Positions 18,150 through 45,786 are shown, counted from the first letter of the stretch. The stretch is DNA of 64,000 nt from an uncultured Chloroflexia bacterium (GCA_963809375.1 CAWEJO010000004.1:350850-414849), one strand, 5' to 3'. A program made the numbers and translations. Notes: a model not told the origin generated them from the letters alone.

Positions 18150-18159
18150 GTGCCCGGGC

Positions 18160-29784: not shown

Positions 29785-29885
29785 CGAGGCGGCGCGGACA
29801 GCATCCAGGACGGCCGCCAGACGTCACGTTCCTCCGCCTCGGATCGCTTCGGTGGCCGGCTCGGCACGAGTCGCGAGCGCGCCGG

Positions 29886-30600: not shown

Positions 30601-30966
30601 GGCCGTGCACCTTACGGGCGTTTCCGACAGGCGGACCGGCGTGTTCGGTAGGCCCGAGTCTCCGCCGTGAGCGTGACAGTGGCGCCGCGGGCCGCCCGGG
30701 AGTGCCACGAGCGGGGGCCCGACGGCCACGATCGGCGCCAAGGTGCATGCCATGCACTTCGGGGAGGATACCTTCGACCACGGGCCGCGGCGCCGGCCGC
30801 ATCGACCACGCCGCGGCGCCGGCGCGGGCGGACCGGGGTCAGTCGGGTGAGACTCGCAGGGCAGCGAGGCGCCAGGCGGTGAGTCCGCGCCCGCGCCACG
30901 TCCGTCGTGTCGGCGCCGGCCGGTTCGCGACGCGAGCGGTCCTGCGTGACCCCCGGGGAGAGTCCC

Positions 30967-32452
30967 CTATCGACTCGCCATCCCCGTCGCCGTCCGGCGC
31001 GCGAGGGCCATGATCGCCAGCATCGGGTTGACGCCCGTCGGGGTGGGGAACGCCGATGCGTCCGTGACGAACAGGCCCTTCGCGTCCCAGACCTCGCCCG
31101 TCGGGTCGGCGACGCTGTCGCGCGGCGACGTGCCGATCCTGCATGACGACATCTGGTGGGCGGTGAACAGCAGGATCCGGTTCGGGCTGATCGGGCGCGC
31201 CGCGATGGCATCCAGGAACGGATCGAACGGAGAGCCCTCGGCCCACGTCAGCGGCGGCGTGAAGAGCGGCACGATCTCGGTGGCGCCGGCGGCGCGGTGG
31301 ATGCGGGCGAGGTCGAGCATGCCGGCCCGCAGGAGGGCGCGTTCGGCGCTGCCCGGCGCGTAGCTGACCGTGATTCCCCCGTCGCGCGCGAGCGAGACGC
31401 GGCCGGCCGAGCGGTCACGCACGATCGCGATGAACGACGCGATGTGGCCCGCCTGCATCGCCAGGCTCCGGTGCTGGGCCGCCGAGGTCCAGGGGAGGGC
31501 GGTCGCGATCAGACCCGGGTGTGTCGGCGCGGCCTCGAGCCGATAGCCCCACGTGCCGTCCACCTCGGCGAACTCCTCGGACATGACGCCCTGCGGCACG
31601 CCGGCCCACGGCTCGAGCGGCTCCGGGTAGACGGCCGCGACGGCCGCGACCGGGTGGATGTGGAGGTGGCGGCCCGCGTTCGCCGTCGCGACTCCGGATC
31701 GCAGCAGCACCGCCGGCGAGAGGACGCTGCCTCCGGCGAGGGCAACGATCGGCGCCCGCACCGTGATCTCGCCACCCGGGACCCTGGCGCGCACGCCGGT
31801 TGCGCGGCCCCCGGCGAGGAGCACCTCCCGGACCTCCGCGCGATCGAGGATCTCGGTTCCATGGGCGCAGGCGTCGGCGAGGTACGTCCGCAGGACGGAC
31901 TGCTTCGCGCCGATCCGGCAGCCCACGGCGCACGGGCCGCAGTCCGTGCAGCCGCGCACGTTGCGGGGCACGACGCTGACGGGGTACCCGAGGGCCTCGA
32001 GACCGGCCGCCAGCCGCGCGTTCGGGCCGTTCGGGGTGCTCTCGTCGGTCGTGACGTTGATATCGCGCTCCACGGCGCTGAAGTGCTCGTCGAGATCGTC
32101 GCCGATCCCGGCGGCCGCCCACTCGGCGCGGACCGCCGCGGGCGGCCGCAGCGACGTGCTCCAGTTCACGACCGTCCCGCCCCCGACCGCGCTTCCCGCC
32201 CGGATCGAGATCCAGCGGTCGCTCGTCGCGGTGAGGCCGCGGTCCAGGAACAGCTCGCCGACGCCCTCGAGCTCGGGGCCGCCGAAGCGATCCTCGCGCA
32301 CCATCGCGGCCCGCTCGAGGACGACGACCTTCTTCCCGCTGCCCGCGAGGATCCCGGCCGCGACGCCACCGCCCGCGCCCGACCCGATCACGACGGCATC
32401 CGCGTCGATGACCTCGCCCGCCCGCGGGGTCCGGACCTTGACCGCCGCTCAT
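30967..32452 (-). CDS. GMC-family FAD-dependent oxidoreductase; probable 1-nt frame problem near the N-terminus (~32410)
   Basis: The FAD-binding motif DADAVVIGSGAGGGVAAGILA follows an N-terminal stretch MSGGQGPDPAGG read in a different frame. The 474-aa body runs to the TGA at 30967 and includes the HxxGTxxMG-like C-terminal region (HQMSSCRIG...GLFVTDASAFPT). Confidence 0.65.
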
Positions 32453-32890
32453 GCTCGGCGGATCGAGGGCCGGAGCCGTGTACCCGGTCCGGGCGCGCCA
32501 GGGCGAGTCGTCGATGCCATAGGTGAGCAGCAGGGTCAGGCGCTTGAGGTCCTGGAACGCGGTCCGCTTGAGCGCGATCGGGCTGCTCGCGAGCGCCCGC
32601 ATCCAGGCTTCGCGCGACGCGTGGTCCATCCGCGAGAACGGCGTCGGGCGGCCCCGGACGCCGCCGAGGGCGAGATTCCCGACCCGCGTCTCCATGGCTC
32701 GCGTGAGCAGCGTCAGCTGGCTCTCGAAGGAGGGCCGGCGGAGCGCCTGCACCTCCGCCCACAGGCGGCGGTGCACGCCGAGCTCGCTCGCCGACGGCAG
32801 CCCCTCCCCGCCCGGCGCGAACGTGTCGACGATGGCGGCCAGGGCGCGATCGCGGCTGCTCATGACCGCGAAGCGTAGCGCCCCTGACAT
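32453..32890 (-). CDS. gluconate 2-dehydrogenase subunit 3-like small subunit (GMC partner)
   Basis: GAAGG RBS before ATG 32890. MSGALRFAVMSSRDRALAAIVDTFAPGGEGLPSASELGVHRRLWAEVQ... is typical of the PF13618 family. As printed, no stop is visible before the GMC start in the same frame, so the 3' end is uncertain (a fusion or a missed indel). Confidence 0.45.
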
Positions 32891-33025
32891 CCTTCGGCGG
32901 CTCTGTCGCGGGTCGCGACCTTGCGTCGGCATGTGACCGCGAGCCGCGTGGGCGCGAGGGGACGCGGCGACGGGCCGGGCGGTCGCGCGGTGCCACGGGC
33001 GCGGCCGTGGCACCGGCTCGCGCTG

Positions 33026-34117
33026 CTACGCCCCCGGGATCACCCTTCCATCGGGCGCGATCGTCGCCGGGCCGGCGCCCCTGGCCGCCCGGGCCGCGGC
33101 GCCGGGGACCTGGTCGCGGGCGTGATAGCTCGAGCGGACGAGCGGGCCGGACTCGACGTGGCGGAAGCCGAGCGCCAGCGCCTCCTCCCGCATCGCCGCG
33201 AACTCGGACGGGTGGTAGTACCGGACCAGCGGCAGGTGGTCGAGCGTCGGGCGCAGGTACTGGCCGATCGTCAGGATGTCGCAATCGACGGCCCGCAGGT
33301 CGCGGAACGTCGCCGACAGCTCGCCGCGCTCCTCGCCGAGGCCGACCATGATGCTGCTCTTGGTGTGGACGGCCCGCCCGAGCTCGGCCGCCTGGGCCTT
33401 CGCCCGCTCGAGCACCTCGAGGCTCCGGTCGTAGCGGGCGCGCCGTCGGACGGGCTTCTGGAGACGCTCGACCGTCTCGACGTTGTGGTTCAGGATGTCG
33501 GGCCCGGCCTCCATCACCGCGCGGAGCGGGGCCGCCTGGCCGTTGAAGTCCGGGATCAGCACCTCGACGCCCATCCCCGGGCAGCGGTCGCGCAGCCGGC
33601 GGATCGTCTCGGCGAAGACGCTCGCGCCACCGTCGGGCAGGTCGTCGCGCGCGACCGAGGTGACCACGATGTGCTCGAGCCCGAGCTGCGCGACGGCTTC
33701 GGCGACCCGGCGCGGCTCGTCGTCGTCGAACCACGTCGGCCGACCCGTCTTGATGTTGCAGAAGCCGCAGGCCCGGGTGCACGTGTCGCCGAGGATCATG
33801 ACGGTCGCGGTGCGCTGGTCCCAGCACTCGCCGATGTTGGGGCAGCGGGCCTCCTCGCAGACCGTGTTGAGGTTCAGGCCACGCAGCAGGCGGCGGAGAT
33901 CCGCGGCGGTATCGCCATGCGTGATGATCGGCGCCCTGAGCCAGTCCGGATGGCGCCGGGCGGGCGGCCCGCCGGGGCCCGCCGCGCCGGCCAGCCCGCC
34001 TCCGCCGGCGGGCAGGTCGACGGAACCTCCCATCGCGATCGTCGGGGGCAGCGTCGGCCCACCCGCGTGGTGGTGGCCCACGCCGGATGGCGCCAGCATC
34101 GGGAGCTCGCGGCCCAT
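33026..34117 (-). CDS. lipA: lipoyl synthase
   Basis: Intact ORF with the radical-SAM motif CTRACGFC and the auxiliary-cluster motif CPNIGECW, plus conserved VVTSVARDDL and SSIMVGLGE blocks. Confidence 0.85.
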   Translation of the reverse strand: MGRELPMLAPSGVGHHHAGGPTLPPTIAMGGSVDLPAGGGGLAGAAGPGGPPARRHPDWLRAPIITHGDTAADLRRLLRGLNLNTVCEEARCPNIGECWDQRTATVMILGDTCTRACGFCNIKTGRPTWFDDDEPRRVAEAVAQLGLEHIVVTSVARDDLPDGGASVFAETIRRLRDRCPGMGVEVLIPDFNGQAAPLRAVMEAGPDILNHNVETVERLQKPVRRRARYDRSLEVLERAKAQAAELGRAVHTKSSIMVGLGEERGELSATFRDLRAVDCDILTIGQYLRPTLDHLPLVRYYHPSEFAAMREEALALGFRHVESGPLVRSSYHARDQVPGAAARAARGAGPATIAPDGRVIPGA

Positions 34118-34183
34118 CAGCGGCCGCCGGTCATGCGGGTAGCCTCATCGGCAGCGTCGCCGGCCGCAGGTCGGTCGCCCCCA

Positions 34184-35607
34184 TCAGTAGACGCCGATCT
34201 CCGGCCCGACGCCTTCGATCCAGGTCTTGACGTCTCGCAGGAAGGTGCCCGCGCGGGCACCGTCATTCGCGCGGTGATCGATCCCGATCACCATGTTCAG
34301 GATGCTGCGGATCCGGATGACGTCGCCATCGGGGGTCTCGGCGACCACGGCGCGCTTGGTGATCGCCTCCATCGTCAGGATCGCGACCTCCGGGACGTTG
34401 ATGATCGGGAGCGTCAGGATGCTGCCGAACCAGCCGGTGTTGTCGACGGTGAAGCTGCCGCCCCCGAAATCGTCGAGCCGCAGCTTGCCGGCGCGGGCGC
34501 GCGAGGCCACGTCAGCGATGGCGCGGTTGATGCCGTTGATCGACATCTGGTCCACGTCCCGGATGCACCGGCACGATCAGTCCGTCATCCACCGCGACCG
34601 CGACCCCGACGTTGATCCGCCGCTTGGCGACGAGGCCCTGGTCGGTCCAGTGGGCGTTGAACGTCGGGTTGCGCTTGAGGGCCTCGACCGACGCCTTGAC
34701 CACGAAGGGCACGAAGCTGAGCGAGATGCCCTCGCGGGCCTGGTAGTCGCGCTTGAGGCTCTCCCGCAGCCGGACGAGGTTCGTCGCGTCGACCTCGACG
34801 TGGACGTAGGCGTGCGGGACGGCGAGCGCGCGCGTCATCTGGGCGGCGATGCCCTTGCGCATCTGGGTCGCCGGGACGAGGACCTCGTCCACGCCAGGCG
34901 GGAAGGAGATCGCGGCACCGGCCGGCAGGGCGGGCGGCGCAACCTTCGGAGCCGGCGCGGCCGGTCCGGCGGGCGAGGAGGCGCCGACGGGCGAGGGAGC
35001 GCCGGCGGGCGCGGCTTCGCCGACCTGCGAGTGGCTGGCCGTTCGCAGCGCCTCCACGACCGCGAGGACGTCCTCGCGCGTGATCCGGCCGCCACCCCCG
35101 GTGCCGCGGACCTGCGCCGGCGAGAGGTCGTGCTCGCGAAGCAGGCGCCGGACGGCGGGCGTCATGCGGGCGTCGGGATCGGCGGCCTCGGCGCCAGCCG
35201 GTCGCGGGGCGGAGGCAGGCGGTGGCGCCGCGGTTACAGGTGGCAGTGCCGCGGGCGAGGGCGGCGCCGCGGCCGGCGGGGCGGGCGCGGCCGGCGCGGG
35301 CTCGGGCGCAGCTCGCGGGCAACATGGCCGGGGCCGCCGCCACCTGCACGGGCGCCGCCTCGGCCGCCCCATCGGCGGTCTCGATCTCGGCGATCTCTGC
35401 GTTGTTGGGGACGGTCGCGCCTTCCTCGGCGAGGATCTTCGTGAGCGTCCCCGCGAACGGCGACGGCACCTCGGCATTCACCTTGTCGGTGATGACCTCG
35501 ACGATCGGCTCGTACTTCTCGACGCGATCCCCGGGCTTCTTGAGCCACCGCCCGATCGTCCCTTCCGCGACGCTCTCGCCGAGCTGCGGCATCGTCACCT
35601 TCGCCAC
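34184..35607 (-). CDS. dihydrolipoamide acyltransferase (E2 of a 2-oxoacid dehydrogenase complex); two frame interruptions
   Basis: N-terminal lipoyl domain [29 protein letters not shown]...[17 protein letters not shown]; E3-binding domain [33 protein letters not shown] in a second frame; catalytic C-terminus [14 protein letters not shown] in a third frame, ending at 34184. Confidence 0.7.
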
Positions 35608-35858
35608 CGGGCGGAACCTCCTTCGCGGGGACGCCAGTCCCTCCGGACGCAGGATCGCGTCAACGCCCGTCTAGTGTGGCCGAAACCGTCCGGACCGGCA
35701 CGCACGCGCCTGCCGGGATCGGCGCGCGGCGCCCCGGCCCGCCGGGGTTGCACCCGGGCGCGGCGGCCCCCGGCCCGGCAGGGGACGGCGACCCGTCCTC
35801 ATGTCGTTCGCGGCCGCTCCGGGCCATTGGTCCCTTGACCGGGCCTGGCCAGACCCGG

Positions 35859-37211
35859 ATGCTCGTCGCGAGGCGCATGCCGCCGTCCGGGGGAGCTTTG
35901 CTCGTGAACCGCGTGACCGCCGCCGCCGTCGTCGTCGCCCTTGTCGCCGCGAGCGCCTGCGGCGGAGCGGGAGCCAGCCGCGATGCGGGGAGCGGCGGCG
36001 GACCACCGGCGATCGGAGTTGCAGTCGCCCGGGTCGCCCGGGCGGCGACGGCCGCGGATCCGCGACCCGCAGCCGAGGCGATCAACTCGTTTGGCGCCGA
36101 CCTCTACCGGCAGCTGGCCGCGGCGGCAGAGCCGGGCGCCAACCTCGCCGTCTCGCCGACCAGCCTCGGCCTGGCACTCGCCATGGTGCGCCCCGGGGCG
36201 CGTGGGACGACCGCGGCCGAGATGGATGCCGTGCTGCACGGCCTCGCGTCGAGCCCGGCCGCGCTCGACGCGATCAACAGCCTCGATCGGGCGCTCGCCG
36301 CTCGCAGCGGGACCTTCCAGACCACCAAGTACGGCACCCAGGAGCTGACGCTGCGGGTCGCCAGCGCCGCCTTCGCCCAGAAGGGCGGATCGATCGTCGA
36401 TGGCTACCTGCGGACCCTGGCATCCTCGTTCGGAGCGGGCGTCAACCTCGTGGACTTCTCGGGCGACCCCGACGTCGCGCGCGAACAGATCAACGCCTGG
36501 GTCAGCGATCGCACGAACGGCAGGGTCCCGGCCATCGCCGGGCCAGGCTCGATCGATCGCGCCACGCTCCTGGCACTTGCCAACGCGGTCTACCTGAAGG
36601 CGCCCTGGAAGGATCCCTTCGACGCGCCGGTCGACGGCCCGTTCACCCGGCCCGACGGGGCCAGCGTCCAGGTCCCGATGATGACGGCGCACCTCGACCA
36701 GGCGGGCTACGCCTCGGGCGCCGGCTGGCAGGCGGTCGACATCCCGTACGCGGGCGATCGGCTCGCGATGACCCTGATCGTTCCGGAGGAGATGCGCGGG
36801 TTCGGAGCGAAGCTCGACGGCGCGCTGCTCGGTCGGATCGTGACCTCGCTCGAGGAGCGTCGGGTCACCCTGACGGTGCCGCCCTTCGCGATCACGTCCC
36901 GCTCCGACATCGTCCCCGTGCTCGCCGCCCTCGGGATGCCGGCGGCGGTCGATCCGGCGAGGGCCGACCTGTCCGGCATCTCCGCGAACGCGGTGTCGAT
37001 CGACCACGTCCTCCACGAGGTGCACGTCACCATCGACCCGAACGGCACCGAGGCGAGCGCGGCGACGCTGGTGGCGATCCCGGCCGCCGCGTACCCGGGC
37101 GAGCCCGTCACCCTGGTCGTGAACCGCCCGTTCCTGTTCGCGATCCGCGATCTCGAGACCGGGGCCGTCCTCTTCCTCGGTCGAGTCGCGGACCCGGCGG
37201 CGCACAGCTGA
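35859..37211 (+). CDS. serpin-family protease inhibitor with lipoprotein-type signal peptide
   Basis: Intact frame. The signal is MLVARRMPPSGGALLVNRVTAAAVVVALVAASAC. The serpin core is NSFGADLYRQLA...LAVSPTSLGLALAMVRPGARGTTAAEM...ANAVYLKAPWKDPFD...VDIPYAGDRLAMTLIVP.... A hinge/reactive-centre-loop region is present (GTEASAATLVAIPAAAYPGEPVTLVVNRPFLFAIRD). Confidence 0.75.
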   Translation: MLVARRMPPSGGALLVNRVTAAAVVVALVAASACGGAGASRDAGSGGGPPAIGVAVARVARAATAADPRPAAEAINSFGADLYRQLAAAAEPGANLAVSPTSLGLALAMVRPGARGTTAAEMDAVLHGLASSPAALDAINSLDRALAARSGTFQTTKYGTQELTLRVASAAFAQKGGSIVDGYLRTLASSFGAGVNLVDFSGDPDVAREQINAWVSDRTNGRVPAIAGPGSIDRATLLALANAVYLKAPWKDPFDAPVDGPFTRPDGASVQVPMMTAHLDQAGYASGAGWQAVDIPYAGDRLAMTLIVPEEMRGFGAKLDGALLGRIVTSLEERRVTLTVPPFAITSRSDIVPVLAALGMPAAVDPARADLSGISANAVSIDHVLHEVHVTIDPNGTEASAATLVAIPAAAYPGEPVTLVVNRPFLFAIRDLETGAVLFLGRVADPAAHS

Positions 37212-37293
37212 CGCATCCGCGCCCCGAGGCGACCCAGGTCGCCGCCGACGAGCGCGCCCGACCGGCCGCGCCGGCCCTTCCGGCCCTGCGTGC

Positions 37294-38277
37294 TCAGTAG
37301 GCGGCGAGCTTGCGGATCGCCGCCGCGATCCGCTCGGGCGTGAGCAGGAACGCGTCCTCCAGCCGGTCGTTGTAGGGCGTCGCCGGCGACTCCGGGCCGG
37401 CGAGCCGGGTGACCGGGCCGTCGAGGTAGTCGAACGCCTCCTCGGCGACGAGCGCGGCGACCTCCGCCCCGAACCCGGCGAACCGGTTGTCCTCGTGGAC
37501 GACCAGGCACTTCCCCGTCTTGCGGACCGATGCGAGAACCGTCGCCGCGTCCAGCGGACGGATCGTCCGCAGGTCGACCACCTCGGTCTCGATCCCGTCG
37601 TCCGCCACGCGCGCTGCCGCGTCGAGCGCGTAGTGGACCATCAGGCCGTAGGCGACGACAGTGACGCGGCTGCCGGCGCGGGTGATCGTGGCCCGCCCGA
37701 GCGGCACCGTGTAGTCGGTGTCGGGAACCTCGCCGCGCACGCTGCGGTACATCTTCTTGTGCTCGAGGTAGATCACCGGGTCCGGATCGCGGATGGCCGC
37801 CCGAAGGAGCCCCTTCGCGTCGTACGGCGTGGACGGGATCACGACCTTGAGGCCGGGGACGTGGGCGAAGAACGCCTCGACCGACTGGCTGTGGTACAGC
37901 GCGCCGTGCACGCCGGCTCCGAACGGCGCGCGGATCGTGATCGGGCAGCCGAACGTCCCGTTCGAGCGGTAGCGGACGCGGGCCGCCTCCTGGATGATCT
38001 GGTTCATGGCCGGGAAGATGAAGTCGGCGAACTGGATCTCGGCGACCGGCCGGATGCCGTTGGCGGCCGCCCCGATGCTCACGCCCGCGATCATCGACTC
38101 GGTGAGCGGCGTGTCGATGACCCGGTCGTCGCCGAACTCGGCCCACAGGCCGTCGGTGGCGAAGAAGACGCCGCCCTTGCGCCCGACATCCTCGCCGAGC
38201 ACGACGACCGAAGGGTCCTTGCGCATCTCGTCGCGGAGGCCCTCGCGGATGGCCTCGATGAACGTCCGGATCGCCAT
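37294..38277 (-). CDS. 2-oxoacid dehydrogenase E1 component beta subunit (PDH/BCKDH/acetoin-DH type)
   Basis: Intact 327-aa reading (MAIRTFIEAIREGLRDEMRKDPSVVVLGEDVG...) with the transketolase-like Pyr and C-terminal domains. The start overlaps the E1alpha stop (TGATG). Confidence 0.85.
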   Translation of the reverse strand: MAIRTFIEAIREGLRDEMRKDPSVVVLGEDVGRKGGVFFATDGLWAEFGDDRVIDTPLTESMIAGVSIGAAANGIRPVAEIQFADFIFPAMNQIIQEAARVRYRSNGTFGCPITIRAPFGAGVHGALYHSQSVEAFFAHVPGLKVVIPSTPYDAKGLLRAAIRDPDPVIYLEHKKMYRSVRGEVPDTDYTVPLGRATITRAGSRVTVVAYGLMVHYALDAAARVADDGIETEVVDLRTIRPLDAATVLASVRKTGKCLVVHEDNRFAGFGAEVAALVAEEAFDYLDGPVTRLAGPESPATPYNDRLEDAFLLTPERIAAAIRKLAAY

Positions 38278-39305
38278 CAGCCGTCGCTCGCCTCGAAGTA
38301 CACGTGGCGGGTGAGCGTCGCCGGGTCGGGTTCGGGGGAGGCCTCGGCGAAGTCCGTCGCATCGTCGACGATCGCCCGGATCTCCGCGGCCGTGGCGGCC
38401 TCCCACGCGGCGTCGATGACGCCCGCCGCCCGGAGCTCGTGGCCGAACGCCGGGATCGGGTCTCCCGCCGTGAGCGCGCCGAGCTCCTCGGCCGACCGGT
38501 ACTTCGACTGCTGGTCGTCGGACGAGTGACCGGTCAGCCGCGCCACCTTGGCTTCGATGAACGTCGCTCCCTCGCCCGCCAGCGCGCGGGCGACCGCGTC
38601 GCGCATGGCGAGATAGCAGCCGATCACGTCGGTCCCTTCCACGGTAACGCCCGGCATGCCGTACCCGGCGGCCCGCACGGCGAGGTCCTGCACGGCGATC
38701 TCGCGCTCTGCCGGAACCGAGATGGCATACCCGTTGTTCTCGACGAGCAGGATCATCGGCAGGCGGTGGATGCCCGCGAAGTTGAGCGCCTCGTGGACGT
38801 CGCCCTGGTTGGACGACCCCTCCCCCATCATCGTGAGCGTCACCTGGCCGAGGCCCCGCAGCTTCGAGGCCAGGGCGAGCCCGGCGGCATGCAGGGCCTG
38901 CGTCCCGACCGGCGACGACGACGTGAAGACCTGGCGGCCGGCGTGCCCGTAGTGGGCCGGCATCTGGCGGCCGCCCGAGCCCGGATCGGCAGCCTTGCCG
39001 AACTGGAGGAGCATGATCTCGCGGGGCGTCATGCCGAACGCCAGGACGGCGGTCATGCTCCGGTAGTAGGGGACGAGCCAGTCGCGTCCCGGCACGAGGG
39101 CGGCGCACGCGCCCGCCTCGGCGCCTTCGTGGCCCTGGGCGGAGATCACGAAGTGGACCCGCCCGCTCCGGTTCAGGATCCAGGCCCGCTCGTCGAGCGC
39201 GCGGGCGAGCGTCATGAGCCGGTACGTCTCGCGCAGGCGCTCCGGAGCCAGTCCGGACCGCTCGACTGGGTCGGTCGCGGGCGGATGCTGGGCTGGGTTG
39301 TTCAC
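38277..39305 (-). CDS. 2-oxoacid dehydrogenase E1 component alpha subunit (TPP-binding)
   Basis: TPP motif GEGSSNQGDVHEALNFAGIHRLPMILLVENNGYAIS. The chosen GTG start (VNNPAQHPP...) is uncertain, and the upstream in-frame sequence is Arg/Pro-rich junk. Confidence 0.7.
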   Translation of the reverse strand: MNNPAQHPPATDPVERSGLAPERLRETYRLMTLARALDERAWILNRSGRVHFVISAQGHEGAEAGACAALVPGRDWLVPYYRSMTAVLAFGMTPREIMLLQFGKAADPGSGGRQMPAHYGHAGRQVFTSSSPVGTQALHAAGLALASKLRGLGQVTLTMMGEGSSNQGDVHEALNFAGIHRLPMILLVENNGYAISVPAEREIAVQDLAVRAAGYGMPGVTVEGTDVIGCYLAMRDAVARALAGEGATFIEAKVARLTGHSSDDQQSKYRSAEELGALTAGDPIPAFGHELRAAGVIDAAWEAATAAEIRAIVDDATDFAEASPEPDPATLTRHVYFEASDG

Positions 39306-39556
39306 GGGGCGGATGCTACAGGCGCGGGCGACGCGCGACCATCCCGCACGCTCGGCGTCCCGCGTCGCGGAGAGCGGGGCGCGGTGCCATGGCCGGGGCC
39401 GGCTGCTCCCGACGGGCTGCGCCGCGACCGCCCGCCGGTGCCACCGGCCGGGCCGCGGCCCATCAGCGGAACCGGGCGCGACCGCAGGACCCGGCAGCCA
39501 CGACCCGGCGAGTTCCGATACAGTCTCGCGCACGGCTCAGCGGAGGGTGGCAACCG

Positions 39557-42500
39557 ATGGTCTGCCCGGCGTGCGGGATGGACAACCGACCGGGGCGGCG
39601 CTTCTGCGTCGAGTGCGGCGCGCCCCTCGCGGCCGCCTGCCCGACGTGCGGGGCGCCCGTCGAGGGCGCCGAGAAGTTCTGCGGCTCGTGCGGCACGCGG
39701 CTGGCCCCGGCGCCGCCGGCCGAGCGCTCGACCGCGACGCCGACCACGACATCGGGCCTTGCAGCCGCGGCCCACCTCCCGCTCCCCGAGCCGGTCTCCG
39801 AGCGGCGGCTCGTCTCGGTGCTGTTCGCGGACCTCGTGGGCTTCACCGCGATCGCCGACGGCCGCGACGCGGAGGACACCCGCGAGCTCCTCTCACGCTA
39901 CTTCGAGCTCGCGAAAGACGTGGTGGACAGGCACGGCGGGCGGGTCGAGAAGTTCATCGGCGACGCCGTGATGGCCATCTGGGGCGCGCCGGTCGCGCGC
40001 GAGGACGACGCGGAACGAGCCGTCCGGGCCGCGCTCGACCTGGTGGGCGCCGTGCACGCGCTCGGGCCGTCGGTCCAGGCCCGGGCTGGCGTCCTGACCG
40101 GCGAAGCCGCCGTGACCCTCGGCGCCGTCGACCAGGGCATGGTCGCCGGGGACCTCGTCAACACCGCGGCTCGCCTGCAGGCGGTCGCCACGCCGGGCAC
40201 GGTGCTCGTCGGTGAGGCGACCCAGCGAGCGGCCAGCCGGGCGGTCACGTTCGAGCCCGCCGGCGACCAGGCGCTCCGCGGCAAGGCCGCGCCCGTGCCC
40301 GCCTGGCGGGCGCTCCGCGTCGTCGCCCGGATGGGCGGGCGCGATCGGACGAACGTGCTCGAGGCTCCGTTCGTCGGGCGCCAGGAGGAGCTCCGCCTGC
40401 TCCAGGACCTCTTCCACGCGACCACCCGTGAGCGGCGCGTCCGGCTCGTCTCCGTCATCGGCCCGGCCGGGATCGGCAAGACGCGCCTGGCCCGCGAGTT
40501 CCTCCACTACGTCGACGGCCTGGCCGACGACGTCTGGTGGCACGAGGGACGCTCGCCGGCCTACGGCGACAGCCTCACGTTCTGGGCCCTGGGCGAGATG
40601 GTGCGCCGCCGCTGCGGGCTCGCCGAGACCGACGACGAGGAGACCACGCGGCGGCAGGTCGCAGCCACGCTCGACGAGCACGTCGAGGACCCGGCCGAGC
40701 GGCGCTGGCTCGAGGAGGCGCTGCTCACGCTGCTCGGCGTCGAGGCGCGCGCGGGAAGCGACCAGCTCTTCGGGGCGTGGCGGACGTTCTTCGAGCGACT
40801 CGCGGCGTCCCACCCGGTCGTGCTCGTCTTCGAGGACTTCCACTTCGCCGATTCGGGCCTCCTCGACTTCGTCGATCACGTCCTCGAGTGGTCCCGTGGC
40901 CTGCCCATCTACGTCGTGACCCTGGCGCGTCCCGAGCTCCTCGAGCAGCGCCCGGACTGGGGGGCGGGCAAGCGCAACTTCGTGAGCCTCGGCCTGGAGC
41001 CCCTTCCCCGGGCCGCGATGCGCGAGCTGCTGCAGGGCCTGGTGCCCGGCCTGCCGGAGCCGGCGGTCGACCACATCGTCAGCCGCGCCGACGGGATCCC
41101 GCTGTACGCCGTCGAGACCATCCGGATGCTGCTGGCCGAAGGCCGCCTTACGCCGGTCGGAGACGTCTACGAGCCGACCGGCGACCTTGGCCACTTCGCC
41201 GTGCCCGAGACGCTCACCGCCCTCATCGGCAGCCGCCTCGACGCCCTCGAGCCGACCGAGCGGGCACTCCTCCAGACCGCGTCCGTGCTCGGCCGGAGCT
41301 TCGCGCCGGCTGCCCTCGCCGCCGTCTGCGAGCTGCCCGAGGCCATCATCGCGCCCCACCTGCGCAACCTGGTCCGGCGCGAGATCCTGGTCGTCGACGC
41401 CGATCCGCGGAGTCCCGAGCGGGGCCAGTACGCGTTCGTCCAGGCCCTGATCCGCGAGGTCGCGTACGGCACGCTCGCGAAGCGGGAGCGCAGGATTCGC
41501 CATCTGGCCGCGGCCCGCTACTTCGAGGGGCTCGGGTCCGACGAGCTCGCCGGCGCGCTGGCCGGCCACTACCTGGCCGCCCACGCCAACGCCGCCGAGG
41601 GAGCCGAGGCCGACGCGCTGGCGAGCCAGGCGCGGCTGGCCCTGCGGGGCGCCGCGGAACGGGCGGCCGCCCTGGGCGCCCACGACCAGGCCGTCACGTT
41701 CCTGCGCCAGGCATTGATCGTGGCGCCGGACGACGCAGAACGGGCGGACATCCTCGAGCGCGCCGGATCGGAGGCGTCCGCCGCCGGGCAGCACGCGGCA
41801 GCCGAGGAGCTCCTCCGCCAGGCGCTCGAGCGGCGGATCGAGGCCGGCGAGGCCGGTGGAGCGAGCGACGCCGGCGAGGCTAGGGGTGCCGGCGGGGCCG
41901 GGGGCGCCGTCGAAGCGAGCGGGGCAGGGGCGCAGGCGGGGCCGTCGGAGCGACCGGGTCCGGCGAGGCCGGGGATGCCACCCCGCGAACCTGCCGAGGC
42001 CCGTGCGACCGCTCGGACCATGACCCTCCTCGCGCGGGCGATGCTCTCGGCACGCAGGCCGGACCGGGTCCTCGAGTTCGTCGAGCCCGCGGTCGAGCAG
42101 GGTCGCCACCTCGGCGGCCTCCCGGCCGACGATCCGGCGTACGTAGCGCTCCTGGCCCAGTACGCGCGGGCGCTCCTCCTGAACGACCAGTTCCGCCGCG
42201 CGCTGGCCGTCGTCGACCGCGCGCTCGAGGCCGCCGAGCACGCCGATCTCCAGGACATCCTCGCCGACGCCCTCGTCACGCGCGGCTCGACGCTCGGGGG
42301 GCTCGGCCGGCCGCGCGAGGGCCTCGGGGTGATCGAGATCGGCGAGGGTCTCGCGAGATCGCGCGGCATGACGCGAACGCTGATGCGGGCGATCAACAAT
42401 CGGGCCGGGTCCTTGTTCGAGTTCGATCCGCCGGCGTCCCTCGAGCTGTGCCGCGAGGGCCTCGCCCTCGCCCGGCGCGTCGGCGATCGAGGGGCGATGT

Positions 42501-43287
42501 TCGCCATGCATGGCATGCTCGGCTACGGCATGCTGATGACGGGCGACGCGGACGGCGGCCTTGCCTCATTCGAGACCGGCCTCGCGGAGGATCCCGAGCC
42601 GGCCGACCGCCTGCTCCTCCTGGCCGGCACGATCATGATCCGGGCGTGCCGCGGCGAGGTGACGCAGGAGCTCCTCGACGAGCTGCTGCACCTCGCGGGT
42701 GCCGTCAGCGACTCGAACGTCCTCTGGACGATGACCGATGCGCCCTGCTGGGTCGCCTTCGCCGACGGCCGCTTCGGCGAGGCGGCTGCGGGATGGCGCC
42801 AGGGCGGCGCACGGATCGACTTCCAGGCCACCACCTGGTATCCGCAGGCCGCCGGAGCCTCGCTCCTCGATGGCGACGCGGCCTCGGCCGAGGGCGACCT
42901 CGCCGCGCTCGACGCGACCGGGTTCCACCGCCGGTCGCCGAGCTCCACCGGCAGCGGATCCGGGCCGGGCTGGCCGCATCGGCCGGCCGGCGCCAGGACG
43001 CCCTCCGCCAGTACCGCGACGCGCTTCAGGGCTACCTGGACATCGGCCTCGTCTGGGAGCACGCCCTCGGCGTGATCGAGATGGCAACCCTGCTCGGCGG
43101 CGGAGACCCGGAAGTCATGGCCGCGGTCGCGATCGCCCGGCCGCCGCTGGAGCGCATGGGCCTGCGGCCGTTCCTGACCCGGCTGGACGCGGCCGTCGCG
43201 CGACGACCAGTCAATGCGCCGGCGCGCGAACCGGAACGGCCCGGCCCGACACCGGCGCCTACCGACGCGTCGGTCGCCGCCCCTTAA
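39557..43287 (+). CDS. multidomain signalling protein: double zinc-ribbon, class III adenylate/guanylate cyclase, AAA/STAND NTPase, TPR-like helical repeats; one frame interruption near 42930
   Basis: GGAGGG RBS. Zinc ribbons MVCPACGMDNRPGRRFCVECGAPLAAACPTCGAPVEGAEKFCGSCG; cyclase core LVSVLFADLVGFTAI...FIGDAVMAIWGAP; P-loop IGPAGIGKTRLAREF; ~600 aa of Ala/Leu-rich helical repeats. The true C-terminus (..RQDALRQYRDALQGYLDIGLVWEHALGVIEMATLLGG.., ending at 43287) is in another frame. Confidence 0.7.
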
Positions 43288-43289
43288 CG

Positions 43290-44096
43290 TCAGCGGAAGC
43301 GGGCGAGGGCGGCCAGGAGCGGGATGCCCATCACGAACGGGCCGATGATGACGAGCTCGGACGGCCCGCCCGCGGTCAGGTTCGAGACGAGCATCGCGCC
43401 GTACGCCACGAGGGGCGGCCATGCCAGCCCGAGGCGCCGGTCGGCAGGCGCCGCCGACGGAGTCCGTGACTCGTAGACCCGGTAGAGGGCGTAGACCGTG
43501 AACGTGGTCACGAGCCAGCCGACGTAGTTGCGGACCGGGACGCCGAAGTACGGCCCGCCAGCCTCCCAGATCCAGGCCCGGAAGCCCGGGCCCGACAGGA
43601 TGGGGTCGACCACGACGTCCCAGGCGGTCATCACGACCGCGCCGAGGGCTGCCAGCCAGGCGATGCCGACGACGCCGCCCCGCGTCCCGTACGGCCTGCC
43701 GTCGGCGAGCAGGCCGCCGATCACGTAGCTCGGGTAGATCATCATGAACCAGGCGCACGGGATCAGGAGCGGCACGTCGCCCAGCTTCGGGCCCAGGACG
43801 TCGGTGTAGTGGTAGGGGCCGTAGACGAGGCCGGTGGCAACCCCGGCCTGCTCGAAGCACCACGACACGACGGCGCTGAGGCCGAAGAAGATCGCCGCGT
43901 GGCGGCCGCCGAGGATGAAGGTGGCGTGGCAGACGCTGAACACGACGAGCAGCGTCGTGAGCCCGTTGAGGCCGCCCGGCACGGCCGGCAGGCGCAGATC
44001 CGGCAGCAGGCCGCGAACGGGCCCGTCGTAGATGAACAGGCCGAGCGCGACGAGGCTCGCCCAGAGCCAGTATCGCCGCCGGCCGCTCACCTCCAA
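43290..44096 (-). CDS. polytopic membrane protein (possibly carotenoid-biosynthesis-protein/PF04240-like)
   Basis: Intact 268-aa ORF that is almost entirely hydrophobic helices. It is convergent with the cyclase gene and begins 10 nt downstream of the lpd stop. The family assignment is from memory only. Confidence 0.45.
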   Translation of the reverse strand: MEVSGRRRYWLWASLVALGLFIYDGPVRGLLPDLRLPAVPGGLNGLTTLLVVFSVCHATFILGGRHAAIFFGLSAVVSWCFEQAGVATGLVYGPYHYTDVLGPKLGDVPLLIPCAWFMMIYPSYVIGGLLADGRPYGTRGGVVGIAWLAALGAVVMTAWDVVVDPILSGPGFRAWIWEAGGPYFGVPVRNYVGWLVTTFTVYALYRVYESRTPSAAPADRRLGLAWPPLVAYGAMLVSNLTAGGPSELVIIGPFVMGIPLLAALARFR

Positions 44097-44105: not shown

Positions 44106-45548
44106 TCAGAAGTTGATCGACCGCCCGTCGACCGCCATCGCCGCCTCGCCCAGCACCTCGGAGAGCGTGGGGTGCGGATGCGTCGACCCGCCGATCTCCC
44201 AGGGAACAGCCTGCAGCGTCGTCGCGAGCGACGCCTCGGCGATCAGCTCGGTCGCGTGGGGGCCCATCACGTGGATCCCCAGCGTCTCGCCAGTCTCCGC
44301 GTGGGCGATCACCTTGGCGAACCCCTCGTAGTCGCCGTGGATGATGGCCTTGGCGATCGCCTGGAACGGCACCTTGCCGATCTTGACCGGCAGGCCCGCC
44401 TTCTCGCACTCCTGCTCGGTCCGGCCGATCGAGGCGATCTCGGGGCGCGTGTACGTCGCGCGCGGCTGGCCGACATAGTCCATCGCGTGGACGTCGGGGT
44501 CGCCGGCGATCGTGTGGACCGCGGTGAGGCCCTCGTGCGCCGCCGTGTGGGCGAGCCACAGCCCGCCGACGATGTCGCCGATCGCCCAGACATGCGGCTC
44601 GGCAGTCCGCATGTGCCCGTCCACCTTGACGATGCCGCGGTCGGTCTCCACCCGGGTGGTCTCGAGGCCGAGGTCCTCGACGTTCGCGGCCCGGCCGGCG
44701 GCGACGAGCAGCACCTCGGCCGCGATCTCCTTCGCCTCGCCACCTTCGGGGCCGACCGTCAGGCGGATGCCCTCGTCGCCGACCACGAGCGACCCCGCGT
44801 CGAACCGCGCGTTCGTGATGACGTCGATGCCGCGCCGCTTGAAGCTCCGCTCGAGGTCCTTCGAGACCTCCCGGTCCTCGAGCGGCACGATCGCCGGGAG
44901 GTACTCGAGGAGGGTCACCTTGGCGCCGAGGTCATGGAATGCCGAGGCGAACTCGGCACCGACCGCGCCCGCCCCGATGATCACGATGCTGGCGGGCAGG
45001 TCGACCATCCGGAGGACGTCGTCGGAGGTCAGGATCCGGCGACCGTCCGGCGTGATGCCGGCGAGCGACTTGACCCGCGAGCCGGTGGCGAGGATCACGT
45101 CGGTCGCCTCGAGGAGCCGTTCACCGCCGGTGCCGGGCGTGCCGTCCTCGCCGTGGAGGCGGACCCGGACGCGACCCGGGCCCTCGAGGCGGCCCCGGCC
45201 GGCGACCCATTCGACCTTGTTCTTGCCGACGAGGCCCCGCAGGCCGGTCCACATCCGGCGGACGACCTGGTCCTTGCGGGCCGCGATCGCCGCGTACTCG
45301 ATCGCGACGTCGCCGACGTGGATGCCCATCTCGCGGCCCTTCTCCCGGACGCGGTGGGCGAGCTCCGCCGACTCGAGGATCGCCTTGGTTGGAATGCAGC
45401 CACGGTGGAGGCAGGTGCCGCCGATCTTGTCCTCGTCGACGAGGGCGACCTTCAAGCCGAGCTGGGCCGCCCGGAAGGCCGCCGTGTAGCCGCCGGTGCC
45501 CGCGCCGAGCACGATGAGATCGAACGAGTTGGACGAGCCGACGGCCAT
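44106..45548 (-). CDS. lpdA: dihydrolipoyl dehydrogenase (E3)
   Basis: Intact reading. FAD motif LIVLGAGTGGY, redox-active disulfide GGTCLHRGCIPTK, NAD motif IGAGAVGAEFA and the C-terminal HAHPTLSE interface motif are present. GAGGAG RBS before ATG 45548. Confidence 0.85.
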   Translation of the reverse strand: MAVGSSNSFDLIVLGAGTGGYTAAFRAAQLGLKVALVDEDKIGGTCLHRGCIPTKAILESAELAHRVREKGREMGIHVGDVAIEYAAIAARKDQVVRRMWTGLRGLVGKNKVEWVAGRGRLEGPGRVRVRLHGEDGTPGTGGERLLEATDVILATGSRVKSLAGITPDGRRILTSDDVLRMVDLPASIVIIGAGAVGAEFASAFHDLGAKVTLLEYLPAIVPLEDREVSKDLERSFKRRGIDVITNARFDAGSLVVGDEGIRLTVGPEGGEAKEIAAEVLLVAAGRAANVEDLGLETTRVETDRGIVKVDGHMRTAEPHVWAIGDIVGGLWLAHTAAHEGLTAVHTIAGDPDVHAMDYVGQPRATYTRPEIASIGRTEQECEKAGLPVKIGKVPFQAIAKAIIHGDYEGFAKVIAHAETGETLGIHVMGPHATELIAEASLATTLQAVPWEIGGSTHPHPTLSEVLGEAAMAVDGRSINF

Positions 45549-45786
45549 GGGTGGGATGCTCCTCGCGTTCCGGATGGAGAGTGCGCCCATCGTACCAAGC
45601 GCGGGCTGCCCTCCCGGGCGGGCGCGCTGGTGAGGGCGGGAAGGAACGCTGGCCGCGGCGGGGAGGCGAGCTGGTGGCTACCGCCACCCCGCAAACGCGC
45701 GAGAATGAGCAGGGGCAGCATCTCTGCCCTTCCGGTGCCTAATCGGCCGGACACGGGACGCGCGTTCGGCCACCAGAGGGGACCCG

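What the first reader, a model, noticed from the sequence alone, without database searches (positions are those of the whole stretch)
33026..39305. Serpin gene inserted in opposite orientation between E1beta and E2 of a 2-oxoacid dehydrogenase / lipA operon
E1alpha-E1beta-E2-lipA are all on the minus strand with overlapping or close junctions, but a 1.35-kb plus-strand serpin gene with a lipoprotein signal sits between E1beta (start 38277, end 37294) and E2 (start 35607). The serpin is one of the few long genes here with an intact frame. A reactive-centre-loop region is recognisable in the sequence. Serpins are patchily distributed in bacteria and often horizontally acquired. Insertion into a core metabolic operon would split its transcription and is a candidate recent acquisition.
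Basis: partly seen in the sequence, partly recalled or inferred. Interest (0 to 1): 0.55.

Follow-up and report, generated by a model that had tools for sequence, protein, structure and literature searches.

The report
Lipoprotein serpin gene in a variable operon gap
A membrane-anchored protease-inhibitor (serpin) gene sits backwards between two genes of a 2-oxoacid dehydrogenase cluster in a soil Chloroflexota genome, but this gap holds different cargo genes across the whole class, so the insertion is real yet fairly ordinary.

Summary
On the minus strand lie lipA (33026-34117), E2 (34184-35607), E1beta (37294-38277) and E1alpha (38277-~39302). A full-length serpin (35904-37211, or ATG 35859) lies on the plus strand between E1beta and E2. 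The genome belongs to the class Candidatus Limnocylindria (Chloroflexota).

None of 80 related species has a serpin at this position, and the closest relatives have only 158-260 bp there. The gene is therefore a lineage-specific insertion.

However, the E1beta-E2 gap varies across the class from 84 to more than 7,400 bp (median 1.8 kb), with 41 different cargo layouts in 67 species. E2 also carries its own conserved upstream element. The serpin therefore landed between two likely transcription units, not inside a tight operon.

Its codon usage matches the host and no mobile-element marks are present. "Recent foreign acquisition" is not supported.

The serpin belongs to a family of lipoprotein serpins that is common in this class. 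Together with one relative it forms a divergent long branch that has lost the Glu342-Lys290-Thr203 breach network. The hinge is intact and P1-P1' is Ala-Ala.

E2 is broken by two frameshifts, most likely long-read assembly errors.

Verdict: a new member of a known kind, of modest interest.

The parts
35904..37211 (+). Serpin gene (435 aa from GTG 35904; alternative ATG at 35859 gives 450 aa)
   Evidence: Pfam PF00079 covers 2-370/370, E = 3e-83. An identical 435-aa protein (P0001) is in public databases. PDB sequence hits reach 4e-49. AF2 model pLDDT 85.7, and all top Foldseek hits are serpins.
35904..35960 (+). Lipoprotein signal peptide with lipobox (MNRVTAAAVVVALVAASA|C19), followed by a ~35-residue low-confidence linker
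   Evidence: Matches the PROSITE PS51257-type pattern. 99 of 120 family members match the same pattern. Cys19 is nearly invariant in the 44-sequence family alignment. Most of residues 1-32 have pLDDT below 50, and the mean stays below 55 to about residue 40.
37038..37103 (+). Reactive-centre loop, P17-P5' (P379 N G T E A S A A T L V A I P A A395|A396 Y P G E): hinge GTEASAAT, predicted P1-P1' Ala-Ala
   Evidence: Alignment to alpha1-antitrypsin, conserpin, chloropin and 119 homologues. P1 was assigned by counting 14 residues from P15 Gly. The loop has pLDDT 36 in the model.
35608..35903 (.). Divergent intergenic region between the E2 and serpin starts. Homology to relatives ends about 85-90 nt upstream of E2, and the rest is window-specific.
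   Evidence: Alignment with L001/L078/L003/L005. No sigma-70 consensus match. No significant RNA structure.
35671..35687 (-). Conserved E2-upstream element, degenerate in the window: GGTTTCGGCCACACTAG versus class consensus GGATG[C/G]GCGACACTAG
   Evidence: Present in 62 of 68 sequences, 30-92 nt before the E2 start; 2.2 expected by chance. The stricter pattern has 59 matches in 1.1 Mb of loci, all directly upstream of E2.
37212..37293 (.). 82-nt convergent spacer between the serpin stop and the E1beta stop. No similarity to relatives' spacers and no canonical terminator.
   Evidence: folding z-scores -1.4 and +0.4.
37294..38277 (-). E1 beta subunit, intact, 327 aa
   Evidence: Pfam. NCBIfam NF006667 scores 352 bits against a 321-bit cut-off. 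91% identical to L001/L078.
38277..39302 (-). E1 alpha subunit, intact (the ORF stays open up to 39533)
   Evidence: Pfam E1_dh covers 1-299/300. About 78-79% identical to L078/L001 in one frame.
34184..35607 (-). E2 acyltransferase, read in three frames. One extra base near 34567 (GTGCATC versus GTCATC in L078) and a second shift in the repetitive Ala/Pro linker (~35250-35310).
   Evidence: Pfam pieces. tblastn with L078 E2 gives three collinear HSPs in three frames. Sequence shown. Tandem repeats in the linker.
33026..34117 (-). Lipoyl synthase lipA, intact
   Evidence: Pfam. TIGR00510 scores 355 bits against a 310-bit cut-off.
44106..45590 (-). E3 dihydrolipoyl dehydrogenase. It lies directly upstream of E1alpha in relatives but is separated from it here.
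   Evidence: TIGR01350 scores 494 bits against a 409-bit cut-off. Synteny.
39389..44096 (.). Second window-specific insert in the same cluster, between E3 and E1alpha: a cyclase/STAND-ATPase/TPR gene (+, ~39557-43075) and a CruF-like membrane protein (-, 43290-44096)
   Evidence: blastn against L078/L001. NCBIfam. The E3-E1alpha junction exceeds 600 bp in only 1 of 78 relatives.

Best explanation
A single-gene, lineage-specific insertion put a divergent member of the Limnocylindria lipoprotein-serpin family into the spacer between two adjacent units of a 2-oxoacid dehydrogenase cluster (E3-E1alpha-E1beta | E2-lipA).

**Why the insertion is tolerated (inferred).** This spacer gains and loses genes throughout the class. 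It appears to lie between the end of the E1 unit and an E2-specific upstream element that looks like a promoter or operator. An insertion there would not cut a transcript.

**What the protein does (inferred from sequence).**
- It is exported and lipid-anchored through Cys19 on the outer face of the cell membrane, held on a flexible linker of about 35-40 residues.
- It acts as a suicide-substrate inhibitor. A serine protease that prefers small aliphatic P1 residues (elastase-like, alpha-lytic-protease-like or subtilisin-like) cleaves Ala395-Ala396.
- The loop then inserts into beta-sheet A and traps the enzyme. The likely benefit is protection of the cell surface against exogenous or the cell's own secreted proteases.

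**Shown:** gene identity, orientation, absence from 80 relatives, variability of the junction, the conserved E2 element, host-like codon usage, and the hinge, lipobox and fold.

**Inferred:** transcription-unit structure, export, inhibitory activity, target class and route of acquisition. The route is most likely relocation or transfer within the class.
For: **Serpin identity**
- Pfam match covers the full profile, E = 3e-83.
- 40 of 51 classic conserved serpin residues are kept.
- AF2 model has pLDDT 85.7 and pTM 0.83. Foldseek TM-scores to solved serpins, normalised to target length, are mostly 0.8-0.9.
- The hinge P15-P8 is GTEASAAT, with no bulky or charged residues at P12-P9.
- A lipobox is present in the window protein and in 99 of 120 homologues.

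**Insertion**
- No serpin hit in any of 80 loci from related species.
- The E1beta-E2 gap is 176 and 228 bp in the closest relatives, L078 and L001.
- Homology resumes at the E1beta stop and about 85 nt upstream of E2.
- An independent Logan contig supports both junctions.

**Variable junction**
- E1beta-E2 gaps have a median of 1777 bp and a range of 84-7476 bp. 53 of 67 exceed 600 bp. By contrast, only 1 of 78 E3-E1alpha junctions exceeds 600 bp.
- There are 41 cargo layouts, including cyclase/STAND, HEAT-cNMP, AlkZ, HTH, PhzF, HAD and an IS30-like transposase.

**Separate E2 unit**
- The element GGATGsGCGACACTAG is found in 62 of 68 sequences. All 59 matches to the strict pattern in 1.1 Mb lie upstream of E2.

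**Origin within the class**
- Best hits are 47-54% identical and come from Chloroflexota/Limnocylindria MAGs. P0089 is on the same contig as locus L005.
- Codon usage is host-like.
Against: - No transcript data exist. The promoter role of the E2 element and the absence of read-through from E1beta are both inferences. No terminator-like structure was found in the 82-nt spacer.
- The window's copy of the E2 element has lost its conserved GATG half, and E2 carries two frameshifts. The possibility that E2 expression was damaged in this lineage cannot be excluded.
- The serpin deviates at 18 of 111 near-invariant family positions, including all three residues of the Glu342-Lys290-Thr203 breach network. 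Its inhibitory competence is therefore less certain than for typical family members.
- The P1 assignment rests on counting from the hinge, and the RCL is 3 residues longer than in alpha1-antitrypsin on the primed side.
- No closer homologue than 54% identity exists in any collection searched, so the donor or source locus is unknown.
Confidence: 0.75

Rival explanations
1. Recent horizontal acquisition from a distant donor that split a functional operon. In this reading the frameshifts in E2 and the degenerate E2 upstream element are downstream damage, so the complex is being lost.
For: - The serpin is absent from all relatives at this site.
- E2 has two frameshifts.
- The E2 element has lost GATG only in the window.
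- The serpin sits on a long branch.
Against: - Codon usage and GC3 cannot be told apart from the neighbours.
- The nearest homologues come from the same class.
- There are no mobility genes or repeats.
- The junction is variable class-wide, and E2 has its own element.
- E1alpha, E1beta, E3 and lipA are intact. Each E2 segment remains 68-95% identical to L078 with GC3 of 0.92-0.93 in the two end segments (0.85 over the ORF that holds the middle one).
- Frameshifts also hit PEP carboxylase, a GH94 gene and an adenosine-deaminase-like gene. That pattern is typical of indel errors in long-read MAG assemblies.
Confidence: 0.12
2. The serpin is a decaying or non-inhibitory copy: a relaxed paralogue or a chaperone-like or substrate serpin, rather than a working protease inhibitor.
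For: - It differs at 18 of 111 near-invariant family positions, against a family median of 1.
- Pro replaces Glu342 (P17), Lys290 and Thr203. In alpha1-antitrypsin, loss of the Glu342 interactions causes misfolding and polymerisation (PMC4151987).
Against: - The 435-codon ORF is intact in a frameshift-prone assembly and is identical in a second assembly.
- GC3 is 0.91.
- The inhibitory hinge is intact.
- 93 of 111 near-invariant positions are retained.
- The closest relative, P0002 (54-56% identical), shares K290P and P16 Asn and has also replaced Glu342 and Thr203. It is nevertheless full length. This argues for a maintained variant rather than decay.
Confidence: 0.15
3. The arrangement is an assembly or binning artefact: a chimeric join in a long-read MAG.
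For: The window carries many indel-type frameshifts, so assembly quality is imperfect.
Against: - The independent 1,818-bp Logan contig carries the same serpin with 309 bp upstream (reaching the E2 start region) and the convergent gene 81 nt downstream.
- GC and codon usage are continuous across both junctions.
Confidence: 0.03

Closest known systems
Miropin (Tannerella forsythia), a surface lipoprotein serpin (PDB 5ncs)
   Same: Both are bacterial serpins with an N-terminal lipoprotein signal, so both would be tethered at the cell surface and are presumed to protect against external proteases. 5ncs is among the structural matches. That miropin is a lipoprotein is from my own knowledge (Ksiazek et al. 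2015, cited in PMC10090351).
   Different: The phylum differs (Bacteroidota, host-associated) and sequence identity is only about 26%. Miropin uses several RCL bonds, and no such data exist here. The window protein lacks the Glu342/Lys290/Thr203 network.
Chloropin (Chlorobium limicola), PDB 8gxv
   Same: It is the best sequence match among solved structures (E = 4e-49, full length) and superposes at 2.8 A rmsd. It comes from a free-living environmental bacterium, is a secreted inhibitory serpin, and has the canonical hinge (PMC10090351).
   Different: Chloropin has a plain signal peptide rather than a lipobox. Identity is about 29%, and the RCL sequence and target profile differ.
Limnocylindria/Chloroflexota lipoprotein serpins (unnamed; e.g. 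P0006 from Chloroflexi bacterium GWC2_73_18, P0089, P0050)
   Same: They share the architecture: MxRRLAALL...AC lipobox, a linker carrying an 'A.A.VPRA...P.DA' motif, then the serpin domain with RCL consensus GTEAAAATAVVM.A.... They are 47-54% identical to the window protein.
   Different: In two relatives the canonical copy sits next to a Beta_elim_lyase and lipoate-ligase-like (LplA-B) gene pair (L082, L084), not in the dehydrogenase cluster. The window protein and P0002 form a long-branch pair with a remodelled breach.
Alpha1-antitrypsin (SERPINA1)
   Same: Both have the serpin fold. The RCL segment A-I-P-A-A resembles AAT's A-I-P-M-S (P4-P1'), and a small or hydrophobic P1 suggests elastase-type targets.
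   Different: P17 Glu342, Lys290 and Thr203 are all replaced by Pro here. The window protein is membrane-anchored and bacterial.
Variable-cargo intergenic sites (genomic islets) between conserved flanking genes
   Same: Flanking genes are conserved while contents are highly variable across species. The contents include an IS30-like transposase in one relative.
   Different: There is no tRNA, integrase, att-like repeat or compositional shift at the window's insert. Cargo is mostly single housekeeping-like or regulatory genes.

Membership tests
Serpin superfamily (PF00079) | Full-length serpin domain and fold | tested here: met
   Pfam match covers 2-370/370, 280 bits against a 27-bit cut-off. 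167 PDB serpin sequences match at E <= 1e-20. AF2 model pLDDT 85.7; Foldseek TM-scores (normalised to target length) mostly 0.8-0.9.
Serpin superfamily (PF00079) | Conserved core residues (51 positions of Irving et al. 2000; the list is recalled from memory) | tested here: met
   40 of 51 are identical to the alpha1-antitrypsin residue, including S53, P54, S56, N186, W194, H334, G344 and P391.
Inhibitory serpins | Hinge P15-P9 of the type G-T-E-A-A-A-A, with small uncharged P12-P9 and Thr/Ser at P14 | tested here: met
   The hinge reads G-T-E-A-S-A-A. The motif is as defined in PMC8233489.
Inhibitory serpins | P17 Glu with its Lys290 salt bridge and Thr203 hydrogen bond (breach network) | tested here: not met
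   All three positions are Pro. The role of the network is described in PMC4151987. P0002 also lacks it (Q/P/G).
Inhibitory serpins | Formation of a covalent, SDS-stable complex with a target protease | not testable with these tools
   This needs recombinant protein.
Bacterial lipoproteins (PROSITE PS51257-type lipobox) | Positively charged n-region, hydrophobic h-region, then [LIVMFWSTAG]2-[LIVMFYSTAGCQ]-[AGS]-C | tested here: met
   The signal is M-N-R + VTAAAVVVALV + A-A-S-A-C19. A regex test gives 99 of 120 homologues positive. No dedicated predictor (SignalP/LipoP) was available.
Mobile element or genomic-island insertion | Integrase, transposase or recombinase gene, or terminal or target-site repeats | tested here: not met
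   The insert holds only the serpin ORF. No meaningful direct or inverted repeats flank it, and no tRNA is nearby.
Mobile element or genomic-island insertion | Atypical base composition or codon usage | tested here: not met
   GC 0.732, GC3 0.91, RSCU correlation 0.967 and KL 0.051, all within the range of neighbouring genes.
Mobile element or genomic-island insertion | Presence/absence polymorphism against close relatives | tested here: met
   The serpin is absent from all 80 related species, and the closest have gaps of 158-260 bp.
2-oxoacid dehydrogenase complex gene cluster (E3-E1alpha-E1beta-E2 plus lipA) | All subunits present and co-oriented | tested here: met
   E1beta, E3 and lipA score above NCBIfam cut-offs. 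E1alpha and E2 fall below the equivalog cut-offs, so substrate class (pyruvate or branched-chain) is undecided; JGI names homologues 2-oxoisovalerate dehydrogenase E2.
2-oxoacid dehydrogenase complex gene cluster (E3-E1alpha-E1beta-E2 plus lipA) | Single uninterrupted operon | tested here: not met
   The E1beta-E2 junction is over 600 bp in 53 of 67 relatives. E2 has its own conserved upstream element. In the window the cluster is interrupted at E3|E1alpha and at E1beta|E2. Transcripts were not tested.

The most novel reading that the evidence does not exclude
Two readings remain open.

1. The E1beta|E2 spacer of the 2-oxoacid dehydrogenase cluster may be a class-wide, integrase-independent hotspot for gene gain and loss in Limnocylindria. 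It would be bounded by a 16-nt E2-specific element (GGATGsGCGACACTAG) of unknown function.
2. The serpin found there, together with P0002, may represent a maintained subclade of membrane-anchored serpins that work without the otherwise near-universal Glu342-Lys290-Thr203 breach network. That would imply altered loop-insertion control.
Probability: 0.25. Interest if true: 0.45.

Novelty: new member of a known kind. Interest (0 to 1): 0.27.

Why it matters
- **Interpreting 'operon interruptions'.** A gene that looks like an insertion into a core operon can sit at a spacer that is open to cargo throughout a lineage. Judging it needs synteny across many relatives, not one genome.
- **Serpins in an abundant soil lineage.** Limnocylindria, an abundant and uncultured soil and freshwater class, commonly encode lipid-anchored serpins. 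The literature I could search does not mention this. They may be part of how these cells cope with protease-rich soil.
- **A natural test case for serpin mechanics.** The divergent pair lacking the Glu342/Lys290/Thr203 network tests how essential that network is. This is the network whose loss underlies the human Z alpha1-antitrypsin defect.

None of this overturns current understanding.

Tried and rejected
- **Metagenome scan with the serpin.** The best hit was 49% identical. It gave no closer relative and no shared context.
- **Search for an intact copy of this strain's E2, using a frame-corrected sequence.** The best hit was 73-78% identical, so the frameshifts could not be settled as error or real.
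- **Look-up of the source contig.** Only the short Logan contig came back, without DNA. The rest of the genome could not be checked for a canonical serpin copy.
- **Promoter and terminator consensus scans and RNA folding of both spacers.** Nothing significant was found.
- **Repeat search around the insert.** Only short chance-level matches appeared, with no target-site duplication or terminal inverted repeats.
- **Rfam and tRNA scans.** Nothing was found near the locus.
- **Is the E2-upstream element a general promoter consensus?** Rejected. A loose version of the pattern is at chance level in the window, and the strict version is exclusive to E2 in 1.1 Mb of loci.
- **Is the window's cyclase/STAND gene the same gene as the cyclase/STAND cargo in relatives' E1beta-E2 gaps?** Rejected. 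They share only about 30% domain-level similarity. The true orthologue lies elsewhere in L004 and L005.
- **Are the E1 genes next to the serpin in L084 the same cluster?** Rejected. They are a paralogue, 36% identical.
- **Does the AF2 model say anything about conformation?** The top structural matches being latent or cleaved serpins was not interpreted. It is a known tendency of such models and gives no evidence about the native state.
- **Is a protease partner gene nearby?** None was found among the window ORFs scanned.


Full report
**1. What is in the sequence**

The window is about 73% G+C. Between 33.0 and 39.3 kb the minus strand encodes four genes.
- Lipoyl synthase, 33026-34117.
- An E2 acyltransferase, 34184-35607.
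- E1 beta, 37294-38277.
- E1 alpha, 38277-~39302. Its stop overlaps the E1beta start by one base.

These identities come from Pfam and NCBIfam. On the plus strand, between E1beta and E2, lies a 435-450 codon ORF. It matches the Pfam Serpin model end to end (positions 2-370 of 370, E = 3e-83). Its best solved relative is the bacterial serpin chloropin (8gxv, E = 4e-49). An AlphaFold2 model built on 44 homologues is confident (pLDDT 85.7, pTM 0.83). That model matches only serpins in the PDB.

The most likely start is GTG 35904. It follows GGGGGAG by 8 nt and is the start used for the identical database protein P0001. It gives the N-terminus MNRVTAAAVVVALVAASAC, which is a lipoprotein signal with Cys19. 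A low-confidence linker of about 35 residues follows.

An independent Logan assembly of run ERR12037368 contains the same 435-aa protein. It has 309 bp upstream and a convergent gene 81 nt downstream, so the junctions are not peculiar to one assembly.

**2. Two corrections to the observation**

First, E2 is not intact. L078's E2 aligns to the window in three collinear pieces in three frames. One shift is a single extra base near 34567, where the window reads GTGCATC and L078 reads GTCATC. The other lies in the Ala/Pro linker, which is made of imperfect 6-18-nt tandem repeats (35250-35309).

Second, the serpin is not one of only a few intact long genes.
- Of 14 genes shared with L078/L001, 12 are in one frame.
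- ORFs of 1404, 1228, 861 and 751 aa are intact.

Frame breaks do occur elsewhere: in an adenosine-deaminase-like gene, in a giant GH94 gene at 17.1-24.5 kb, and in PEP carboxylase.

Core enzymes are hit. Each E2 fragment remains 68-95% identical to relatives, and GC3 is 0.92-0.93 in the two end fragments. The relatives are largely long-read MAGs. I therefore read these breaks as assembly indels, with a probability of about 0.75. I could not prove it, because no near-identical intact E2 exists in the protein database.

**3. Who the organism is, and what relatives look like**

An E1beta search of one genome per species returned 80 loci, 71-91% identical at the protein level. They come from Chloroflexota MAGs labelled Limnocylindria, Limnocylindrales or "Chloroflexia".

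In these species the backbone is E3-E1alpha-E1beta ... E2 ... lipA on one strand. None of the 80 loci contains a serpin within 8 kb, even at E = 1e-3. The relatives with the highest E1beta identity have short E1beta-E2 spacers: 176 bp (L078), 228 bp (L001), 159 bp (L003) and 260 bp (L005).

DNA alignment shows where homology to the window holds.
- It runs up to the E1beta stop.
- It resumes about 85-90 nt upstream of the E2 start.
- The intervening 1.6 kb is window-specific: serpin ORF, about 210 bp of 5' region and 82 bp of 3' spacer.

That test comes out in favour of a lineage-specific insertion.

**4. The junction is not a tight operon joint**

The three junctions of the cluster behave very differently across the class.

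| Junction | Median (bp) | Range (bp) | Over 600 bp |
|---|---|---|---|
| E3-E1alpha | 83 | 33-782 | 1 of 78 |
| E1beta-E2 | 1,777 | 84-7,476 | 53 of 67 |
| E2-lipA | 876 | 108-2,509 | 28 of 43 |

- E2-lipA sizes cluster in two groups, near 130-180 bp and near 1,100-1,200 bp.
- Thirteen further loci have no E2 detected downstream of E1beta. In three of them a full 8 kb of flank was available.

The E1beta-E2 gaps hold 41 different gene layouts in 67 species. The contents are as follows.
- A ~120-aa ORF on the operon strand directly after E1beta, in 35 gap ORFs from about 30 loci.
- Large cyclase/STAND-ATPase/TPR proteins.
- HEAT-repeat proteins with a cNMP-binding domain.
- AlkZ-like glycosylases.
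- HTH and response regulators.
- PhzF-like and HAD-like enzymes.
- In one locus, an IS30-like transposase.
- About two dozen singleton genes.

Most of this cargo lies on the opposite strand, as the serpin does.

Immediately upstream of E2 there is a conserved element, consensus GGATG[C/G]GCGACACTAG.
- It is present in 62 of 68 sequences, 30-92 nt before the start codon. Shuffled sequence gives 2.2 matches.
- The stricter pattern occurs 59 times in 1.1 Mb of loci on both strands, and every occurrence is directly upstream of E2.
- It is often preceded by CTCGACC at promoter-like spacing.

I infer that E2-lipA has its own promoter or operator, and that the spacer is a terminator-to-promoter interval where insertions are tolerated. 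This is an inference, because no transcript data were available and no terminator-like fold was found.

The window's lineage also carries two other inserts relative to L078/L001.
- A CruF-like membrane protein plus a cyclase/STAND gene between E3 and E1alpha. This is unusual, because that junction is tight in 77 of 78 relatives.
- A GMC-oxidoreductase segment after lipA.

**5. Where the serpin came from**

Its GC (0.732), GC3 (0.91) and codon usage (r = 0.967, KL = 0.051 against the rest of the window) are typical of the host. No integrase, transposase, tRNA or flanking repeats are present.

Its homologues are 47-54% identical and come from Chloroflexota MAGs. One of them, P0089, is encoded on the same 2.08-Mb contig as locus L005, which is 85% identical in E1beta.

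In that genome and in another (L084), the family copy sits next to a Beta_elim_lyase and lipoate-ligase-like gene pair. The DNA there is 79-87% conserved between the two genomes. That suggests a vertically inherited canonical locus. Other homologues lie in unrelated contexts.

The window's protein pairs only with P0002 on a long branch.
- Its nearest-neighbour distance is 0.64, against a family median of 0.18.
- Nothing closer exists in the metagenome contigs searched.

The best reading is an origin within the class, either as a relocated or duplicated family copy or by transfer between Limnocylindria, followed by fast divergence. "Recent foreign acquisition" has no positive support.

**6. What the protein probably does**

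Of 120 homologues, 99 carry the same lipobox pattern. This is a family of membrane-tethered serpins.

The hinge P15-P8 is G-T-E-A-S-A-A-T, which fits the inhibitory motif quoted by Spence et al. (PMC8233489). Counting from P15 gives P4-P2' = I-P-A-A|A-Y, so P1-P1' is Ala395-Ala396. The neighbouring A-I-P-A resembles alpha1-antitrypsin's A-I-P-M.

A small aliphatic P1 points to elastase-like, alpha-lytic-protease-like or subtilisin-like targets. That step is inference from general serpin knowledge. No protease gene was found among the window ORFs scanned.

The unusual feature is the breach region. Glu342 (P17), Lys290 and Thr203 (alpha1-antitrypsin numbering) are all Pro here. Across 120 family sequences, Lys290 is K or R in 112, Thr203 is T in 115, and Glu342 is E in every homologue inspected except P0002. 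[quoted passage not shown]

P0002 has Q, P and G at the same three positions. It shares Asn at P16 and deviates at 18 of 111 near-invariant positions, as the window protein does (family median 1). Two full-length proteins only about 55% identical to each other share this remodelling. I therefore favour a maintained variant over a decaying gene, but whether it inhibits remains untested.

**7. Comparison with known systems, and verdict**

The gene is a member of the serpin superfamily by every sequence and fold criterion tested. It fails one conserved-network criterion. By design it works like the surface lipoprotein serpin miropin and the secreted environmental serpin chloropin (PMC10090351).

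The insertion has only one property of a mobile island, its absence from relatives. It lacks the others. The "operon" fails the test of being uninterrupted across the class.

Overall this is a correct observation of an ordinary kind of event, placed in a useful context. It is a new, divergent member of a known protein family sitting in a naturally permissive spacer. Interest is modest (0.27). The side observations may repay follow-up: the E2-specific element, the class-wide variable spacer, and the breach-less serpin pair.

Noticed in passing
window 34184-35607 (-); shifts near 34567 and within 35250-35310: E2 of the dehydrogenase complex is read in three frames, with two frameshifts. One is a single extra base in non-repetitive sequence. 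The other lies in a tandem-repeat Ala/Pro linker. It could not be decided whether these are assembly errors or real.
   Followed up: partly
window 35671-35687 (-); e.g. L078:9075-9091, and upstream of E2 in 62 of 68 sequences: A 16-nt element, GGATG[C/G]GCGACACTAG, lies 30-92 nt upstream of E2. All 59 strict matches in 1.1 Mb of related loci are at this position. The window copy has lost the GATG half. It may be a promoter or operator, but its function is unknown and it matches no Rfam family.
   Followed up: partly
L001-L080, between E1beta and E2 (e.g. L011:8985-16459, L047:2833-2915): The E1beta-E2 spacer ranges from 84 to over 7,400 bp, with 41 cargo layouts in 67 species. The E3-E1alpha junction is tight in 77 of 78. 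This looks like a class-wide hotspot for gene gain and loss without recognisable integration machinery.
   Followed up: partly
L050:8989-9375 (+) and 34 other gap ORFs (about 30 loci) directly after E1beta: A conserved ~115-130-aa ORF on the operon strand has the motif GKSCFNF..DE.L..EL and no Pfam or NCBIfam hit. It is sometimes duplicated in tandem. It is absent from the window and its closest relatives.
   Followed up: partly
window 39389-44096: A second window-specific insert lies between E3 and E1alpha: a zinc-ribbon/adenylate-cyclase/STAND-ATPase/TPR protein (1228-aa ORF, +) and a CruF-like carotenoid-hydratase-type membrane protein (-). The cyclase orthologue sits elsewhere and in the opposite relative orientation in L004/L005, so a local rearrangement has occurred.
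   Followed up: partly
window 29784-33036: A third insert relative to L078/L001 lies after lipA. It holds a GMC-family oxidoreductase (30967-32391) preceded by an ORF piece in another frame (32400-33013), which may be a small subunit or another frameshift. An 18-nt x 4.7 tandem repeat sits at 30509-30592.
   Followed up: no
window 17131-24470 (-) and 50260-~54400 (-); 25941-26980 (-): A giant GH94 (cellobiose/cyclic-glucan phosphorylase-type) gene, PEP carboxylase and an adenosine-deaminase-like gene are each split over several frames. Together with E2 this gives roughly one frameshift per 3-4 kb, typical of long-read MAG consensus errors.
   Followed up: partly
L053:8978-14689, L051, L075, L034 and about 13 other loci: A recurring opposite-strand pair fills the E1beta-E2 gap in 16-17 species: a cyclase/STAND-ATPase/TPR protein (~890 aa) and a HEAT-repeat protein with a C-terminal cNMP-binding domain (~1000 aa). 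This may be a cAMP signalling module associated with the dehydrogenase cluster.
   Followed up: no
L082:4020-7941 and L084:3667-7278: In two Limnocylindria genomes the canonical family serpin is divergently adjacent to a Beta_elim_lyase and lipoate-ligase-like (LplA-B) gene pair, with 79-87% DNA identity between the loci. In L084 a paralogous E1alpha/E1beta pair lies 4.5 kb away. This recurring proximity of serpin genes to lipoate or 2-oxoacid-dehydrogenase genes may be coincidence.
   Followed up: partly
L081:1182-5384: Another family serpin (52% identical) also lies on the opposite strand, between housekeeping genes gatC and ligA. In four of the seven distinct contexts examined (counting the window and treating L085/L086 as one), the serpin is flanked on both sides by opposite-strand genes. 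This is not statistically tested.
   Followed up: no
window 10470-17082 (+): An intact MoxR-type AAA ATPase, DUF58 and BatA/VWA (1404 aa) gene set lies here, resembling an aerotolerance-operon arrangement. It is unrelated to the finding.
   Followed up: no
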